Shown: positions 1,862-15,206, counted from the first letter of the stretch. The stretch: 51,069 bases of DNA from a virus (IMGVR_UViG_3300042987_001724), one strand, 5' to 3'. Translations and numbers: made by a program. Notes: generated by a model from the letters alone, not told the origin.

Positions 1862-3025
1862 ATGAAATCGCTGCTGTTTTTATTGTGCCTGTTTTCCGTG
1901 AACCCCAAGGACTTTGGGGCACTGGGCGATGGCGTTTCGGATGACACTGCCGCAATTCAGTCCGCTGCGGATGCGTGCAAATCGAAGCTCCAGTCGATTC
2001 AGCCAACTGGCGGAAGCTACATGGGAAGCTGCCCGGAACTCTTTTTCCCGGCTGGAAAATATAGGATCTCTCGGTCGATCCGGCTTTGTCCGTACCAGAC
2101 CGTGCGAGGCGAGGACTCGATTCTGATTCAGGCTGATCCGAATTCCGGGATTTTCGAGTTTAATGGTGGATATCAGAATCGCGTTATCGGCATGCAGTTC
2201 GTCGGCGGATCGTCTCAAATCGTGTTTGGAAACGCCAATGTAGACTCCAGCTTTCTGACGTTCAGGGATTGCGCGTTTCAGTCGTGGTCCGGGTACTCCG
2301 TTGTTGCCGATGGAACCGTCGATGACCGCCATTTATCCGCAACCCTATCGTTCCATCGTTGCCGGTGGGACGGTGCTCGCGCTGTTTATACCCACTGCGA
2401 TACCACTCAATTCAGCGACTGTGAGGCCCATTTCAGAGGGAAAAATATCCCGCAGGATGGTGCGTGGATCACAAATGCCGGATTCATGCGCCCGAATGGC
2501 ATCTACAGCTACGGCGGGACTCTCGGACTTTACAATGTCACGCTTGTTCCAGCGGCCCCAATCGTTCCAGCGGAAGACGGATCGGCACCAAAGCAGGTCA
2601 ACGCATATTGGATCGACAATGGCGGCTCCGTCGTTGCCGAACGGGTGAGGTTCAGTGGAGAAGGCGCTGGAGTCTCTCCGATCCTGCATCGTGCCCCCGT
2701 CAATACTCGCAGTCCGTATCGCGGGTCGAAAATTGCCATCCATGCCTGCCAAGTCTCCTGCGGTCAGGATGCTGACGTCAACGCAGCCGTTGTGACGCTG
2801 CGAGGCGGGTTTCCGCAATGCTTGAGGATCACGGCTTGCGATGGTCTTGTTTCGCTGTCGATACCGTGGATTCGAGTCTACCCCGGATACAACCTTTCGT
2901 CTGACGTTACGGCCATCGGGAAATCGGCATCGTCATTGAGTCAATACACGATTACAATTCAGGGAAATCAAGCGTTTACGGCTCAACAGATTCCAACACC
3001 GCTTCAGCAATTCGTGGGAAAATAA
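1862..3025 (+). CDS. Pectate-lyase-like beta-helix protein (depolymerase-like) with N-terminal hydrophobic signal
   Basis: VNPKDFGALGDGVSDDTAAIQSAAD and LFFPAGKYRI motifs of the Pectate_lyase_3-type N-terminus; GGAGG RBS. Confidence 0.8.
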   Translation: MKSLLFLLCLFSVNPKDFGALGDGVSDDTAAIQSAADACKSKLQSIQPTGGSYMGSCPELFFPAGKYRISRSIRLCPYQTVRGEDSILIQADPNSGIFEFNGGYQNRVIGMQFVGGSSQIVFGNANVDSSFLTFRDCAFQSWSGYSVVADGTVDDRHLSATLSFHRCRWDGARAVYTHCDTTQFSDCEAHFRGKNIPQDGAWITNAGFMRPNGIYSYGGTLGLYNVTLVPAAPIVPAEDGSAPKQVNAYWIDNGGSVVAERVRFSGEGAGVSPILHRAPVNTRSPYRGSKIAIHACQVSCGQDADVNAAVVTLRGGFPQCLRITACDGLVSLSIPWIRVYPGYNLSSDVTAIGKSASSLSQYTITIQGNQAFTAQQIPTPLQQFVGK

Positions 3026-3709
3026 GTGGCAGGTGAAGTCCAGCTTGTCGTTCCGAGCAAACCATCGACCGCGTATTTTGTGGTCCGAAACGCAGTTGGA
3101 CAGTATTGGTACACCACAACACCGGCATGGGAAGCCTACAACGCTGCGCACTGGACAGCCTACGCAGTCTCGATGACCCAAGATGGAAGTTCCCAGAACT
3201 ATGCCGGGACGTTTCCGGCGACGATCGCAGTCGGAGCCTACCAGCTTTCGGCCTACGCTCAGTCTGGAGGATCTCCAGCAGTCGGAGACGTGCTGATCGG
3301 AACAGATTGCAGGTTCGACTGGACCGGCTCCGCAATTCTGGCGATGCCAGCAAGTCCGGCATCAACCACAAACATCACGTCAGCAACTGGCGTTGATGTC
3401 ACCAAGATCAACGGCGACTCCACGGCGGCGGCAAACGCTGGCAAGTTCTGGACGGGTGCCGTTCTGGATTCCGGGACCGCGCAAGCCGGGGCATCGACAA
3501 CGATTACCCTGCGATCCGGGGCAAACGCCAACGACGACTACTACCTAAATGCTGTTGTCGTCATCACCTCCGGGACCGGCGCGGGGCAAAACCGCAGGAT
3601 TACGGGCTACGTCGGCTCGACCAAAGTCGCCACGATCAGCGGTGACCGAAATTGGGTGACGGCCCCCGACAATACCAGCGTCTACACCATACTCGGAAAC
3701 ATCCCATAG
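3026..3709 (+). CDS. Virion structural protein (tail-associated)
   Basis: GTG start abutting previous stop; GTAQAG..TITL..GA...DDYY..ITSGTGAGQ.R.IT.Y module seen in phage structural proteins. Confidence 0.6.
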   Translation: MAGEVQLVVPSKPSTAYFVVRNAVGQYWYTTTPAWEAYNAAHWTAYAVSMTQDGSSQNYAGTFPATIAVGAYQLSAYAQSGGSPAVGDVLIGTDCRFDWTGSAILAMPASPASTTNITSATGVDVTKINGDSTAAANAGKFWTGAVLDSGTAQAGASTTITLRSGANANDDYYLNAVVVITSGTGAGQNRRITGYVGSTKVATISGDRNWVTAPDNTSVYTILGNIP

Positions 3710-12451: not shown

Positions 12452-13696
12452 ATGAACCAGCAGTTGACATCGCGAGAAATGTACGAAATCAAGTCGATCG
12501 GGTACACCCCGCCACCGGGGCATCGCGGTTCGATGATGGACATGGGGCTACCGGGCTTCACGCTGCGACAGGTGGAGCAGATGCGTCGCGATTCCCAAGT
12601 CAAACTGGGAATGGCGATCAAAACGGCTCCGCTGATGCACGTCAAATTTGAGTGTACCGGACGACCAGACATCGTTCAGTTCGTCACCGGCCAGATGAAA
12701 TCGATATGGGATGAAGCCATCACCAAGATTTCGTCAGCACTCTGGTACAAGGTCCACGCTTCGGAGCCAGTCTACCGAAAAAACCAGAGCACCGGACTGA
12801 TGGAAATCATCTCGCTGCGGGACTTCTACCCCGGAGACGTCGAATTCTTGGAGCAGTCGCAACAACTGATTGGGCTTCGAATCAGATCCTATCAGGGGTC
12901 GAGTGTCGACAATCCGAACGGCTATTTCGACCTGATGGGAATGAAGGGATTCCACTACATCCATCGGCAGGAATTCGGGGGCCGCAACGGAGTCAGCGAA
13001 CTGGAGGCCGCATATCAGCCGTGGCTCGCCAAGGTCGGACCTGACGGCGCAATGGCAGTGAGAACGATGTGGTTTTACAAAAACGCCTACGACAGCGGAA
13101 TCATCTTCCATCCCCCCGGAGTCTACGAATACAGAGCGGGCGAGAACATCGTCCAGATTCCGTATCGTGATCTTGCCCGGCAGGCTGTTGAGCGGGCAAC
13201 ATCCGGGGCGGTTTGGGCCTTCCCGCAATCCTACGACGAAAAGGGGAACCGGATGTGGGAGTTCGTCTCCCCGAAACTGAACGGCGACGGGAAATCCCTG
13301 ATTGATTACGTCGAGCAGTTGAATGTCGAAATTTTGCGCGGCATGGGAATTCCCGACGACATCATCTCACAGACCGGGGGAACCGGAAGCTACGCCGGTC
13401 GTTCGATCCCGTTCCAAGCCTTCCTGACATCACAGAACGATACAGTCCGCGCCATCTTTCAGGCGATCGAAAAGCAGATTCTTGCCAACTTGGCGATGTG
13501 GAACTTCGGAAGCCGAGATTTTGAATTTCACGATGTTCAAGTCGATCGCGACAAACTTCTGCCATCGGATCAGCCACAACCACCCGCAGGAATGGCTCCG
13601 CCGGAAATGGGCGGAGATCCGTCGCAAGATCCAAACGCGATGGCGGCGGCACAAGCCGGTCAGCCAATGCAACCCGCTCCGGCGGCTGCCGCGTAA
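12452..13696 (+). CDS. Portal protein, DUF935/Mu gp29-like
   Basis: Size and motifs (QMRRDSQVK, SELEAAYQPW, GIPDDIISQTGGTGSYA); Pro/Gln/Ala low-complexity tail. Confidence 0.65.
   Translation: MNQQLTSREMYEIKSIGYTPPPGHRGSMMDMGLPGFTLRQVEQMRRDSQVKLGMAIKTAPLMHVKFECTGRPDIVQFVTGQMKSIWDEAITKISSALWYKVHASEPVYRKNQSTGLMEIISLRDFYPGDVEFLEQSQQLIGLRIRSYQGSSVDNPNGYFDLMGMKGFHYIHRQEFGGRNGVSELEAAYQPWLAKVGPDGAMAVRTMWFYKNAYDSGIIFHPPGVYEYRAGENIVQIPYRDLARQAVERATSGAVWAFPQSYDEKGNRMWEFVSPKLNGDGKSLIDYVEQLNVEILRGMGIPDDIISQTGGTGSYAGRSIPFQAFLTSQNDTVRAIFQAIEKQILANLAMWNFGSRDFEFHDVQVDRDKLLPSDQPQPPAGMAPPEMGGDPSQDPNAMAAAQAGQPMQPAPAAAA
13674..13695 (+). repeat. Left copy of an imperfect direct repeat (portal 3' end) bounding the Cas7-like cassette
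   Basis: ccgctccggcggctgccgcgta versus ccgctccggctgcggctgccgcgta at 15182-15206. Confidence 0.7.
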
Positions 13697-13698
13697 CG

Positions 13699-13728
13699 AA
13701 AACGCCCGGATATTTCACCGGGCGTTTT
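13699..13728. terminator. Bidirectional intrinsic terminator
   Basis: AAAACGCCCGG-ATATTTCA-CCGGGCGTTTT hairpin between the convergent portal and Cas7-like cassette. Confidence 0.85.
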
Positions 13729-13731
13729 CCC

Positions 13732-13771
13732 TTGACATGGCATGACATGACTCAACACGACTCAACACGCC
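13732..13771 (-). ncRNA. Pentamer (GNY-NN) repeat array A1, putative VIPR-type guide RNA, 8 units
   Basis: Minus strand: GGC GT GTT GA GTC GT GTT GA GTC AT GTC AT GCC AT GTC AA. Confidence 0.75.
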
Positions 13772-13804
13772 CCGCGTGGACAAGTCTCGCGAAATTTCGC
13801 CCGG

Positions 13805-14362
13805 CTATGACCACTTTACATCAACAACTTCAAATCGACCGTAATACCCGTTGTTTCTTGGTCGGAACCTACCGATCCCGATAAACCTCCCAGCGTCTTC
13901 AAGATGGGCGAGAAACACGTCTTCGTTGATCACCTCATCAAGAACAAGGAAGTCTACAACGCCAGACCATGATGGAATTACCGGGAACGTCTTTAGCACC
14001 CGAGTTGTGCCACCTCGCCTGCCGTCGCTTGGAACGTGGAGAGACTCTCCTTTCACATCACTGACATTCACGCCAAGAGATAGCGGGTCGCACACTAGCA
14101 ACCCCGCCTCAAAATGTTTTGTGTAGGTAGACTTGCCTTTTCCCGGTATCTGGATCGACTTGTACTTTGCCGCCTCCGCAAGACAATTCTTAAATGACAT
14201 TGGCGGGATGAATACGACACCATTCTCATCAGCATGCAGCCGCTCTCGCCATGTCCGTTGCTCAAATTCGTCGTGCGTTTCATCGCGAGACTTCTTTGAC
14301 TGAATAAACCTCGACTGGCTGTATGGACTAATCGACTTCAACGTAGCACTGGCTGTTCTCAT
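13805..14362 (-). CDS. Stand-alone Cas7/RAMP-like protein (Vipr-like RNA-guided effector)
   Basis: RAMP hallmarks: N-terminal strand ATLKSISPY, FIPPMSFKNCLAEAA (IPGSSLKG-like), C-terminal Gly-loop GIGRFRPRNNGYYGRF; flanked by pentamer arrays; no other cas genes. Confidence 0.8.
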   Translation of the reverse strand: MRTASATLKSISPYSQSRFIQSKKSRDETHDEFEQRTWRERLHADENGVVFIPPMSFKNCLAEAAKYKSIQIPGKGKSTYTKHFEAGLLVCDPLSLGVNVSDVKGESLHVPSDGRRGGTTRVLKTFPVIPSWSGVVDFLVLDEVINEDVFLAHLEDAGRFIGIGRFRPRNNGYYGRFEVVDVKWS

Positions 14363-14385
14363 TCCGTTCCCCTAAACTGAAAACA

Positions 14386-14435
14386 TTGACACGACTCAAC
14401 CCGCCTCGCCACAACTGGCCCCGGCTTGACCCGCC
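14386..14435 (-). ncRNA. Pentamer repeat array A2, 10 units
   Basis: Minus strand: GGC GG GTC AA GCC GG GGC CA GTT GT GGC GA GGC GG GTT GA GTC GT GTC AA. Confidence 0.8.
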
Positions 14436-14465
14436 GAGCGACACACGATAAACAAACAATAAACC

Positions 14466-14525
14466 TTGACATGCTTGGCCTCGACCCGACATGACTCACC
14501 GCGACATGCCCCGACTAGACCTGAC
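14466..14525 (-). ncRNA. Pentamer repeat array A3, 12 units
   Basis: Minus strand: GTC AG GTC TA GTC GG GGC AT GTC GC GGT GA GTC AT GTC GG GTC GA GGC CA AGC AT GTC AA. Confidence 0.8.
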
Positions 14526-14529
14526 CAAA

Positions 14530-15012
14530 TCATCCCCCGAATAACTTGAGCGTCTCGCCGATTGCGAGTGGTGAATCCCCTGTCACTTTCGACTCAATTT
14601 TCTTCGATGACTTACTGGACCCAAACAGCTTGATCGCCCCTAACTGCGCCGACTTGGTCAAATGCGATTTTCGAGACTCTGGTGACAACTCATCAAACTC
14701 AATGTTTTGCAGGATCTTCATCCCCTTGCTGGCGGCACGACGCGCCTTCCCGACGAAAGACCCACCGGCATTCACAGCGCCGTCTCCATCGAGACGCTTC
14801 AAGCCCTCGCCGAAAATCACATCAAAATGAATTTTCTCTTCGACTAGAGTCTTTCGGGCTGTCGCCAAGTTGCCGCGACAAAACTCCCTTACGTCCCTTC
14901 CTAGGATTGTCGACAGTTCCGTATACGGAATGACGTCACCCGGAGACGTGTTTCTCAATCTGTTCTCAAGAATCGACGTGTCAGCCGACTTTTCTCGAAT
15001 ACCCTTGCTCAT
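14530..15012 (-). CDS. Accessory protein of the Cas7-like cassette (160 aa, possible N-terminal winged helix)
   Basis: GGAG RBS before the ATG at 15012 (MSKGIREK...); located between arrays A3 and A4. Confidence 0.75.
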   Translation of the reverse strand: MSKGIREKSADTSILENRLRNTSPGDVIPYTELSTILGRDVREFCRGNLATARKTLVEEKIHFDVIFGEGLKRLDGDGAVNAGGSFVGKARRAASKGMKILQNIEFDELSPESRKSHLTKSAQLGAIKLFGSSKSSKKIESKVTGDSPLAIGETLKLFGG

Positions 15013-15022
15013 ACAAAACTCC

Positions 15023-15082
15023 TTGACTCGAATCGCCTGAACGAGCCTCGTCATGCCCAAACGCGACGCGACACAACTCGAC
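15023..15082 (-). ncRNA. Pentamer repeat array A4, 12 units
   Basis: Minus strand: GTC GA GTT GT GTC GC GTC GC GTT TG GGC AT GAC GA GGC TC GTT CA GGC GA TTC GA GTC AA. Confidence 0.75.
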
Positions 15083-15126
15083 AAATACAATACGACACCA
15101 TTCACATCGCGGATCACAAGTATTTT

Positions 15127-15145: not shown

Positions 15146-15181
15146 CACTAACGCGGCTTCCGCTTCCGAATTCGGATCAAG

Positions 15182-15206
15182 CCGCTCCGGCTGCGGCTGC
15201 CGCGTA
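15182..15206 (+). repeat. Right copy of the portal 3'-end direct repeat
   Basis: Encodes APAAAAA* like the portal end APAAAA*. Confidence 0.7.

What the first reader, a model, noticed from the sequence alone, without database searches (positions are those of the whole stretch)
13732..15082. Non-canonical repeat grammar: GTC-dominated G-N-Y triplets and an invariant terminal GTCAA
Counted triplets over 42 units: GTC 19, GGC 10, GTT 7, GCC 2, and one each of GGT, AGC, GAC and TTC. So 40/42 are G-N-Y and all 42 end in a pyrimidine, but only 11 are GGY. All four arrays end at their 3' side in GTC-AA followed by G or T, then a T-rich tract, an RBS or the terminator. Inference: this is a divergent subtype with relaxed or shifted triplet recognition (GKY rather than GGY), and GTCAA is a processing or capping handle. 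Searches built on a GGY motif would miss it.
Basis: partly seen in the sequence, partly recalled or inferred. Interest (0 to 1): 0.82.

Follow-up and report, generated by a model that had tools for sequence, protein, structure and literature searches.

The report
Phage VIPR guide arrays, G-K-Y type
The four five-base-rhythm tracts are guide-RNA genes of a phage VIPR system (a small CRISPR-related, RNA-guided DNA-silencing system described in 2026) whose fixed triplet is G-(U/G)-pyrimidine instead of the textbook GGY. This is a real but already-reported kind of variation.

Summary
Four minus-strand arrays hold 42 phased pentamers: GTC 19, GGC 10, GTT 7, GCC 2 and four singletons. Each array is followed by AA(G/T)G.

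The neighbouring 185-aa protein is a Vipr. Its five best AlphaFold DB matches are the five founding Vipr accessions, and its family profile matches SUSP1 Vipr (98% probability).

Across 147 distinct relatives the fixed triplet differs by locus: GGC 75, GAC 32, CGC 13, GTC 8, GTT 3 and others. The closest relatives (83-88% identical) mix G and T in the middle, as the window does. So GKY is a maintained grammar and not decay.

The window's protein carries the same base-contact signature as GGC-type relatives. Tolerance at position 2 is therefore more likely than a new specificity. By contrast, GAC and CGC loci carry substitutions at sites aligning with SUSP1's GGY-contact residues.

"GTCAA" is the last guide unit abutting a family-wide constant terminal unit (AAGGN plus a U tract). 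It is not itself a handle.

Non-canonical VIPR triplets were already published in October 2026, and this scan had noted GAC and GTC arrays on other DNA. No RNA or target evidence was obtainable.

The parts
15025..15084 (-). vrRNA array C: 12 pentamer units (NN + GTC/GTT/GGC; one GAC, one TTC), upstream of vap
   Evidence: no significant RNA structure (z -0.5)
15019..15024 (-). Terminal constant unit AAGGA(G) of array C. It doubles as the Shine-Dalgarno sequence of vap (ATG at 15012).
   Evidence: sequence; the same GTC-AAGGAG-TTTT end occurs in L103, L023, L057 and L186
14530..15012 (-). vap-like accessory gene (P0002, 160 aa): an N-terminal winged-helix-like fold followed by helices
   Evidence: phrog_5926, no Pfam family. 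Relatives lie on the vipr strand in 118 of 187 loci, 100 downstream and 18 upstream. Model pLDDT 89. Only weak fold matches (E 0.02-0.3), all to winged-helix regulators.
14468..14527 (-). vrRNA array B1: 12 units (GTC 8, GGC 2, GGT 1, AGC 1), starting 2 nt after the vap stop codon
   Evidence: unstructured (z +0.8)
14445..14467 (-). Terminal unit AAGGT plus U-rich tract (GUUUAUUGUUUGUUUAU) after B1
   Evidence: family-wide pattern
14388..14437 (-). vrRNA array B2: 10 units (GGC 4, GTC 3, GTT 2, GCC 1), in phase with B1, with an internal GTCAA at 14426-14430
14372..14387 (-). Terminal unit AATGT plus U-rich tract after B2, just upstream of the vipr ribosome-binding site and start codon
   Evidence: L105 has the same ...GAGGT AATGGTTTTT end
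13805..14362 (-). vipr gene (P0001, 185 aa): a minimal single-RRM RAMP protein with a thumb and a glycine-rich loop (GIGRFRPRNNGYYGRF)
   Evidence: phrog_4652. AlphaFold2 model pLDDT 91. AlphaFold DB top five matches are X1U2U4, A0A0F9A1L0, A0A661D0E2, A0A1F4YLN4 and A0A2D6XG06, which are the founding Vipr hits of the VIPR paper. PDB matches are type VII Cas7 and Csm3. hhalign to SUSP1 Vipr gives probability 98.1%, E 1.2e-13.
13734..13773 (-). vrRNA array A: 8 units (GTC 4, GTT 2, GGC 1, GCC 1), downstream of vipr
13698..13733 (-). Terminal unit AAGGG followed by a 12-bp hairpin with a U run. This is an intrinsic-terminator-like structure shared, on the other strand, with the end of the portal gene.
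   Evidence: fold z-score -5.6

Best explanation
The stretch is a complete VIPR cassette of a freshwater phage, set behind the portal gene. Read on the minus strand it runs: array C, vap, arrays B1 and B2, vipr, array A, terminator.

By analogy with SUSP1, each array would be transcribed into a vrRNA. One Vipr protomer would bind per 5-nt unit, flip out the fixed triplet, and present the two variable bases (NN) for gapped pairing with double-stranded DNA, silencing a rival mobile element.

In this Vipr clade the triplet rule is G at position 1 and a pyrimidine at position 3. Position 2 is permissive: in the window and its nearest relatives it is U or G, and elsewhere G, A or U, but almost never C. 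The grammar is therefore G-K-Y and not GGY.

The 'GTCAA' is the junction between the last guide unit and a constant terminal unit (AA + GGN or KGN) followed by a U-rich tract. This short terminal module probably takes the place of SUSP1's 40-nt pseudoknot tail, marking or capping the 3' end. At array C it also serves as the ribosome-binding site of vap.

Shown here: the anatomy, the protein's family membership, and the comparative pattern. Inferred: transcription, Vipr loading, tolerance at position 2, and the role of the terminal unit.
For: - Arrays: counts and phase are exact and far beyond chance.
- Protein: the Vipr fold is confirmed and profile homology to SUSP1 Vipr is strong (against the paper's methods).
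- Context: a portal gene lies next door (phrog_113, E 4e-13). The vap is conserved in 118 of 187 loci.
- Relatives: 187 related loci, nearly all with phased arrays on the vipr strand directly flanking vipr and vap.
- Position 2 across relatives: among loci with the same contact-site signature as the window (S15, E106, F126, R165), position 2 ranges from pure G (L020: 74 G, 3 A, 0 T) to mostly T (L021: 43 T, 6 G). C stays at 1-2% in every GC bin. Flanking GC content does not explain the U type (Spearman r 0.13, p 0.17).
- Contrast classes: GAC loci have lost E106 and R165 (22 of 32, against 0-1 of 88). CGC loci have F126Y (12 of 13, against 0 of 120). These sites align with SUSP1 D177 and R138, which contact the GGY guanines (contacts from 10.64898/2026.04.26.720927).
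- 3' ends: of 190 distinct array ends, NN is AA in 49% of last units, 37% of next-to-last units and about 8% of units further in. The next bases are AAGGA, AAGGG or AACGC.
- Structure: three of the four window arrays have no significant RNA structure.
Against: - There is no RNA evidence.
- No target was found for any decoded guide.
- In SUSP1, changing GGY to GAY abolished silencing (fig. S12 legend). Tolerance at position 2 is therefore not a general Vipr property and is only inferred here from natural sequence.
- All 11 U-dominated loci have Y173, against 31 of 77 G-type loci (Fisher p 1e-4). A partial specificity change is therefore not excluded.
- The residue-triplet associations do not reach significance on phylogenetically independent, well-supported pairs, of which there are only 3-5.
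- The co-varying sites map crosswise to the SUSP1 contact assignments. The R138-equivalent varies with base 1 and the D177-equivalent varies with base 2. The geometry is unresolved.
Confidence: 0.8

Rival explanations
1. This is a re-specified subtype. The window's Vipr has a position-2 pocket evolved to prefer U, co-evolving with its arrays, which would make an orthogonal Vipr-vrRNA pair.
For: Y173 is present in all 11 U-dominated loci against 31 of 77 G-type loci. S17G occurs in 4 of 13 U-type loci against 1 of 44 G-type. Near-pure U-type loci exist: L057 has GTC in 33 of 36 units and L021 has GTT in 42 of 53. Clear residue switches accompany GAC and CGC loci.
Against: The window mixes U (27) and G (12) in every array. 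Its signature at the associated sites equals that of pure-GGC loci such as L020. U-type loci need 10 changes for 11 loci on the tree. No column separates U-type from G-type cleanly.
Confidence: 0.15
2. These are decaying GGY arrays. The GTC bias is mutational erosion of once-canonical guides that are no longer used.
For: Some close relatives are GGC-dominated: L104 (82% identical) has 19 of 24 GGC, and L004 (74%) has 31 of 48.
Against: Erosion would hit all three fixed positions and the phase. Here position 1 is G in 40/42 units, position 3 is a pyrimidine in 42/42, and the phase is intact over 8-12 units. Position 2 is specifically T 27 and G 12, with A 1 and C 2, which does not look like the spread of a random mutation spectrum. 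The vipr and vap genes are intact and conserved. The same G/T mix recurs in L103, L105 and L001.
Confidence: 0.03
3. The arrays are read from the plus strand, as NN-GAC-type guides or as DNA-level TTGAC(A) promoter-like repeats.
For: GTC is the complement of GAC, so a plus-strand phased signal exists (score 9 at 14466-14525). GAC-type arrays are common in relatives. The plus strand begins each array with TTGACA.
Against: On the plus strand the triplets are GAC 19, GCC 10, AAC 7, AGC 1 and so on, which fit worse (first base G in 34 of 42). The terminal AA-unit plus U tract, which marks 3' ends on the vipr strand in 190 relatives' arrays, sits at the minus-strand 3' end. No sigma-70-like promoter was found on either strand. 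The genes and the terminator geometry fit the minus strand.
Confidence: 0.03

Closest known systems
Type II VIPR of Escherichia phage SUSP1 / Pseudomonas fulva prophage (Vipr + vap1 + vrRNAs; bioRxiv 10.64898/2026.04.26.720920 and 10.64898/2026.04.26.720927)
   Same: A small single-RRM RAMP protein with a thumb and G-loop (hhalign probability 98%). A two-gene cassette in a phage. 8-12 five-nt units per guide, each made of a fixed triplet and a variable NN. Arrays lie both upstream and downstream of the genes.
   Different: About 22% protein identity. The triplet is G-K-Y here (GGY in only 11 of 42 units), whereas SUSP1 needs GGY and GGY>GAY abolishes silencing. There is no ~40-nt pseudoknot tail; instead a constant AAGGN unit plus a U tract. 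The vap is not demonstrably homologous to vap1 (hhalign probability 12%).
Non-canonical VIPR repeat clusters (GAC/NN, CAC/NN, WGT/NN, TGH/NN; 21 clusters, 6,318 sequences) in bioRxiv 10.64898/2026.10.21.760802, and the 'NNNGG, YNNNG, NNNNG' alternatives in the VIPR discovery paper's methods
   Same: Five-nt period, a fixed or partly degenerate non-GGY triplet, and an adjacent Vipr-fold protein resembling X1U2U4 (X1U2U4 is also the best match here, TM 0.80).
   Different: GUC/GKY is not named in the text I could read, and the figures are not held. Residue-level co-variation and the terminal AA-unit are not described there.
Class 1 CRISPR Cas7 backbone (type III Csm3, type VII Cas7)
   Same: Fold (Foldseek E 1e-7 to 1e-5), one protomer per RNA repeat interval, and thumb-mediated base flipping (known from established structures).
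   Different: No CRISPR repeat-spacer array, no Cas5, Cas6 or Cas10 partners, and a 5-nt rather than 6-nt period.

Membership tests
VIPR system | Vipr protein: a minimal RAMP (single RRM, thumb, glycine-rich loop) related to the founding Vipr proteins | tested here: met
   pLDDT 91. The AlphaFold DB top five matches are the paper's five founding accessions. hhalign to SUSP1 Vipr gives E 1.2e-13.
VIPR system | Tandem 5-nt repeats (fixed triplet + hypervariable NN), 9-16 per vrRNA, in the intergenic DNA flanking vipr | tested here: met
   Four arrays of 8, 10, 12 and 12 units. 12 of the 16 possible NN dinucleotides are used.
VIPR system | The fixed triplet is GGY (canonical definition) | tested here: not met
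   11 of 42 units are GGY and the consensus is G-K-Y. No run of four or more YNNGG units exists. The papers themselves allow 'a related consensus', so this does not exclude membership.
VIPR system | Accessory vap gene in the same operon | tested here: met
   P0002 relatives lie next to vipr on the same strand in 118 of 187 loci. The winged-helix-like fold is supported only weakly.
VIPR system | Viral or proviral context | tested here: met
   The adjacent gene is a portal. 80 relatives lie on IMG/VR viral contigs.
VIPR system | vrRNAs are expressed and co-purify with Vipr | not testable with these tools
VIPR system | NN bases specify a DNA target by the 1-nt skip rule | tested here: inconclusive
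   No exact gapped match in IMG/VR. Local gapped matches were no better than shuffled guides.
SUSP1-clade (type II) VIPR | Invariable ~40-nt structured 3' tail (pseudoknot) after the repeats | tested here: not met
   B1, B2 and C have no significant structure (z +0.8, -1.3, -0.5). A is followed by a plain terminator hairpin.

The most novel reading that the evidence does not exclude
In this large Vipr clade the fixed triplet may act as a lineage-specific 'address'. It would co-evolve with a handful of base-contact residues (S15, E106, F126, R165, Y173, which align with or next to SUSP1's H17, R138 and D177/W178 sites). The result would be mutually orthogonal Vipr-vrRNA pairs, so that competing phages and satellites cannot load or hijack each other's effector, as happens with solo vrRNAs in the SUSP1 system. 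The window's G/U-mixed arrays would be a permissive intermediate on such a switch.
Probability: 0.25. Interest if true: 0.65.

Novelty: new member of a known kind. Interest (0 to 1): 0.4.

Why it matters
The window adds no new kind of system. Its value lies in the comparative series it opened.

- One conserved 185-aa Vipr family (42-88% identical) naturally uses GGC, GAC, CGC, GUC, GUU and other triplets.
- GAC and CGC use coincides with substitutions at positions that align with the cryo-EM-defined GGY contacts.
- This is a ready-made map for testing how Vipr reads its scaffold triplet and for engineering orthogonal VIPR effectors.
- It warns that GGY-based callers miss a sizeable share of loci: about 45% of the loci examined here are not GGC- or GGT-dominated.
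- It shows that this clade replaces the structured tail with constant AA-units.

Tried and rejected
Population variation in near-identical DNA runs therefore could not be read either.
- Own genome: none is held.
- Targets: exact 1-nt-skip patterns of B1 (12 and 10 units), C and B2 gave 0 hits in IMG/VR. Gapped scans of 0.85 Mb of held DNA with skip 0-3 were no better than shuffled guides.
- Rfam: nothing reached gathering score, and no ribozymes were found between arrays.
- Promoter scan: no sigma-70-like sites.
- Compositional explanation of the U type: rejected.
- Phylogenetically independent pairs: too few (3-5) to test co-variation.
- A 'keto-base pocket' idea (Arg/Glu reading G or U): dropped, because loci with the same residues also carry many GAC units (L056: 25 A; L030: 14 A).
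- P0002 against SUSP1 vap1: probability 12%.
- P0002 fold: only weak winged-helix matches.
- VIPR type (I-VII): could not be assigned, because the figures and tables of the paper are not held.

Full report
**Observation.** On the minus strand the three intergenic tracts around two small genes hold four arrays of strictly phased pentamers.
- A: 13734-13773, 8 units.
- B2: 14388-14437, 10 units.
- B1: 14468-14527, 12 units.
- C: 15025-15084, 12 units.

- Position 1 is G in 40/42 units.
- Position 3 is a pyrimidine in 42/42.
- Position 2 is T 27, G 12, C 2, A 1.

With a phased G..Y detector the arrays score 8-10. In 200 block shuffles of the window, segments scoring 8 or more occurred 0.005 times per shuffle. 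Each array is followed by AA(G/T)G and then a U-rich tract, a ribosome-binding site or a terminator hairpin. A fifth GTCAA lies inside B2. A search for four consecutive YNNGG units finds nothing in the 51-kb window.

**What it is.** That led me to the 2026 preprints on Viral Interference Programmable Repeat systems. In these systems a minimal RAMP protein (Vipr) polymerises on a vrRNA made of 9-16 GGY/NN units. It hides each GGY and presents the NN bases for gapped (1-nt skip) recognition of double-stranded DNA.

P0001 (13805-14362, minus strand, 185 aa) has no Pfam family and matches phrog_4652.
- Its AlphaFold2 model has pLDDT 91.
- In AlphaFold DB its five best matches are X1U2U4 (TM 0.80/0.83, E 2e-13), A0A0F9A1L0, A0A661D0E2, A0A1F4YLN4 and A0A2D6XG06. 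These are exactly the five founding Vipr hits listed in the discovery paper's methods.
- In the PDB it matches type VII Cas7 and Csm3.
- I fetched SUSP1 Vipr through a bridging Pseudomonas phage homologue. The P0001 family profile aligns to it with 98.1% probability and E 1.2e-13.

The second gene, P0002 (14530-15012, 160 aa), has relatives on the vipr strand in 118 of 187 related loci. Its confident model has a winged-helix-like N-terminus, but it finds only weak matches to winged-helix regulators. It behaves as a vap. The gene upstream is a portal. The locus is a VIPR cassette of a phage from a freshwater metagenome.

**Relatives.** The family is very large.
- 4117 clusters at 90% identity have E ≤ 1e-3.
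- 3087 clusters at 50% identity have E ≤ 1e-3.

I collected 187 loci holding 147 distinct full-length proteins. Nearly all have phased arrays directly flanking vipr and vap on the gene strand.

The dominant triplet differs by locus: GGC 75, GAC 32, CGC 13, GTC 8, GTT 3, CTC 3, GGT 2, and AGT, CAC, GGA and ATT one each. Some loci are nearly pure:
- L011: GAC in 145 of 178 units.
- L070: GGC in 93 of 95.
- L057: GTC in 33 of 36.
- L021: GTT in 42 of 53.

Others are mixed. The window's nearest relatives mix G and T in the middle as the window does. L103 (88% identical) has GGC 11, GTC 7, GGT 3, GTT 2. L105 (83%) has GGC 11, GTC 8, GTT 6, GGT 6. L104 (82%) is GGC-type.

Mixed loci show two regimes. 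In the first, G-N-Y, position 2 varies. In the second, N-G-Y, position 1 varies; an example is GGC and CGC units within one array. C at position 2 stays at 1-2% whatever the genome's GC content, and GC content does not explain the U type.

**Does the triplet follow the protein?** At clade level, only loosely. On an 80-protein tree the labels need 31 changes, against a minimum of 11 and a shuffled mean of 39.5. On the larger tree, the 11 U-type loci need 10 changes.

A blind mutual-information scan nonetheless picked out a few columns.
- F126Y occurs in 12 of 13 CGC loci and 0 of 120 others.
- E106 and R165 are lost in 22 of 32 GAC loci and in 0-1 of 88 GGY/GTY loci. A change at S15 goes with GAC in the same way.

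In the SUSP1 alignment, F126 is the counterpart of R138, R165 of D177, F166 of W178 and R167 of R179. These are residues that the cryo-EM paper shows touching G2, G1, G2 and Y3. S15 lies two residues from the H17 site. This agreement is independent support that these positions set triplet preference.

Two cautions apply. Well-supported independent pairs are too few (3-5) for a sign test. The base assignments also look crossed relative to SUSP1.

For the U type the signal is weak. Y173 is present in 11 of 11 U-type loci against 31 of 77 G-type loci (Fisher p 1e-4), and no column separates the two cleanly. The window's protein has the default signature found in pure-GGC loci. The most economical reading is that this protein requires G1 and Y3 and tolerates U or G at position 2. 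In SUSP1, by contrast, GGY>GAY abolishes silencing.

**The terminal GTCAA.** Over 190 distinct array 3' ends, the NN of the last unit is AA in 49%. It is AA in 37% of next-to-last units, 22% of the third from last, and about 8% further in. The next five bases are most often AAGGA, AAGGG or AACGC.

The conserved feature is therefore a short run of constant AA-units ending in AAGGN, followed by a U-rich tract. In the window only the final unit is of this kind (AAGGG, AATGT, AAGGT, AAGGA). 'GTCAA' is simply the last guide unit's GTC next to it. GTCAA[GT]G ends occur in 15 of 147 loci, including GGC- and GTT-type loci.

Arrays B1, B2 and C have no significant RNA structure. Array A runs into a strong terminator hairpin. 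This clade thus lacks the 40-nt pseudoknot tail of the SUSP1 clade. That the AA-units cap the filament or mark the 3' end is an inference.

**Comparison with what is known, and novelty.** The discovery paper already says that types use GGY/NN 'or a related consensus', and it lists NNNGG, YNNNG and NNNNG alternatives. A preprint of October 2026 reports 21 clusters (6,318 sequences) of VIPR arrays with non-canonical units such as GAC/NN, CAC/NN, WGT/NN and TGH/NN next to Vipr-fold proteins. This scan had also noted GAC- and GTC-type arrays on other DNA.

The window is therefore a new member of a known kind. The GKY mix, the residue-level co-variation and the AA-unit terminus refine what is published. 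They do not amount to a new system.

**Limits.** No genome is held for the window. No target was found by exact gapped search. Expression, loading, tolerance and the terminal unit's role remain inferences.

Noticed in passing
window 15089-15108 and 14211-14230: The 20 nt just 5' of array C (minus strand: GATGTGAATGGTGTCGTATT) repeat 19 of 20 nt of the vipr coding sequence (codons for DENGVVF). The identity does not extend further and the repeat is absent from six close relatives. It could be a recombination scar or a regulatory feature; it is unexplained.
   Followed up: partly
window 13670-13692 and 15178-15200: A 23-nt direct repeat (83% identical) duplicates the 3' end of the portal gene on the far side of the cassette, 1508 nt away. 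This looks like the footprint of cassette insertion behind the portal gene.
   Followed up: partly
L073, L090, L095 (cyanobacterial contigs), e.g. L095:1400-1484 and 3016-3100: In these relatives the arrays read NN-GAG on the strand opposite to vipr (CTC on the vipr strand). They end in a conserved tail, yTTTAATATTAAGCGATCGC or ATTCTAGCTTACACCATATTCGATCGC. L097 has GTG/CAC units. The strand and the triplet rule (a purine at position 3?) are unresolved.
   Followed up: partly
L011:2097-4321 (IMGVR_UViG_3300034073_002108): A relative with about 180 near-pure NN-GAC units in at least nine arrays around vipr. The arrays are separated by a conserved TCAGAGGAGAGACGAyACAC spacer. This is an unusually large guide repertoire.
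   Followed up: no
L016:2668-2965, L094:3585-4098: CGC-type arrays (NN-CGC, ending AACGC AACGC AACGT + T run) occur in proteins that carry F126Y. They show that either guanine of GGY can be dispensed with in different lineages of one family.
   Followed up: partly
L103:4224-4508: The closest relative's contig encodes a CsrA-family protein (PF02599) two genes downstream of vipr.
   Followed up: no
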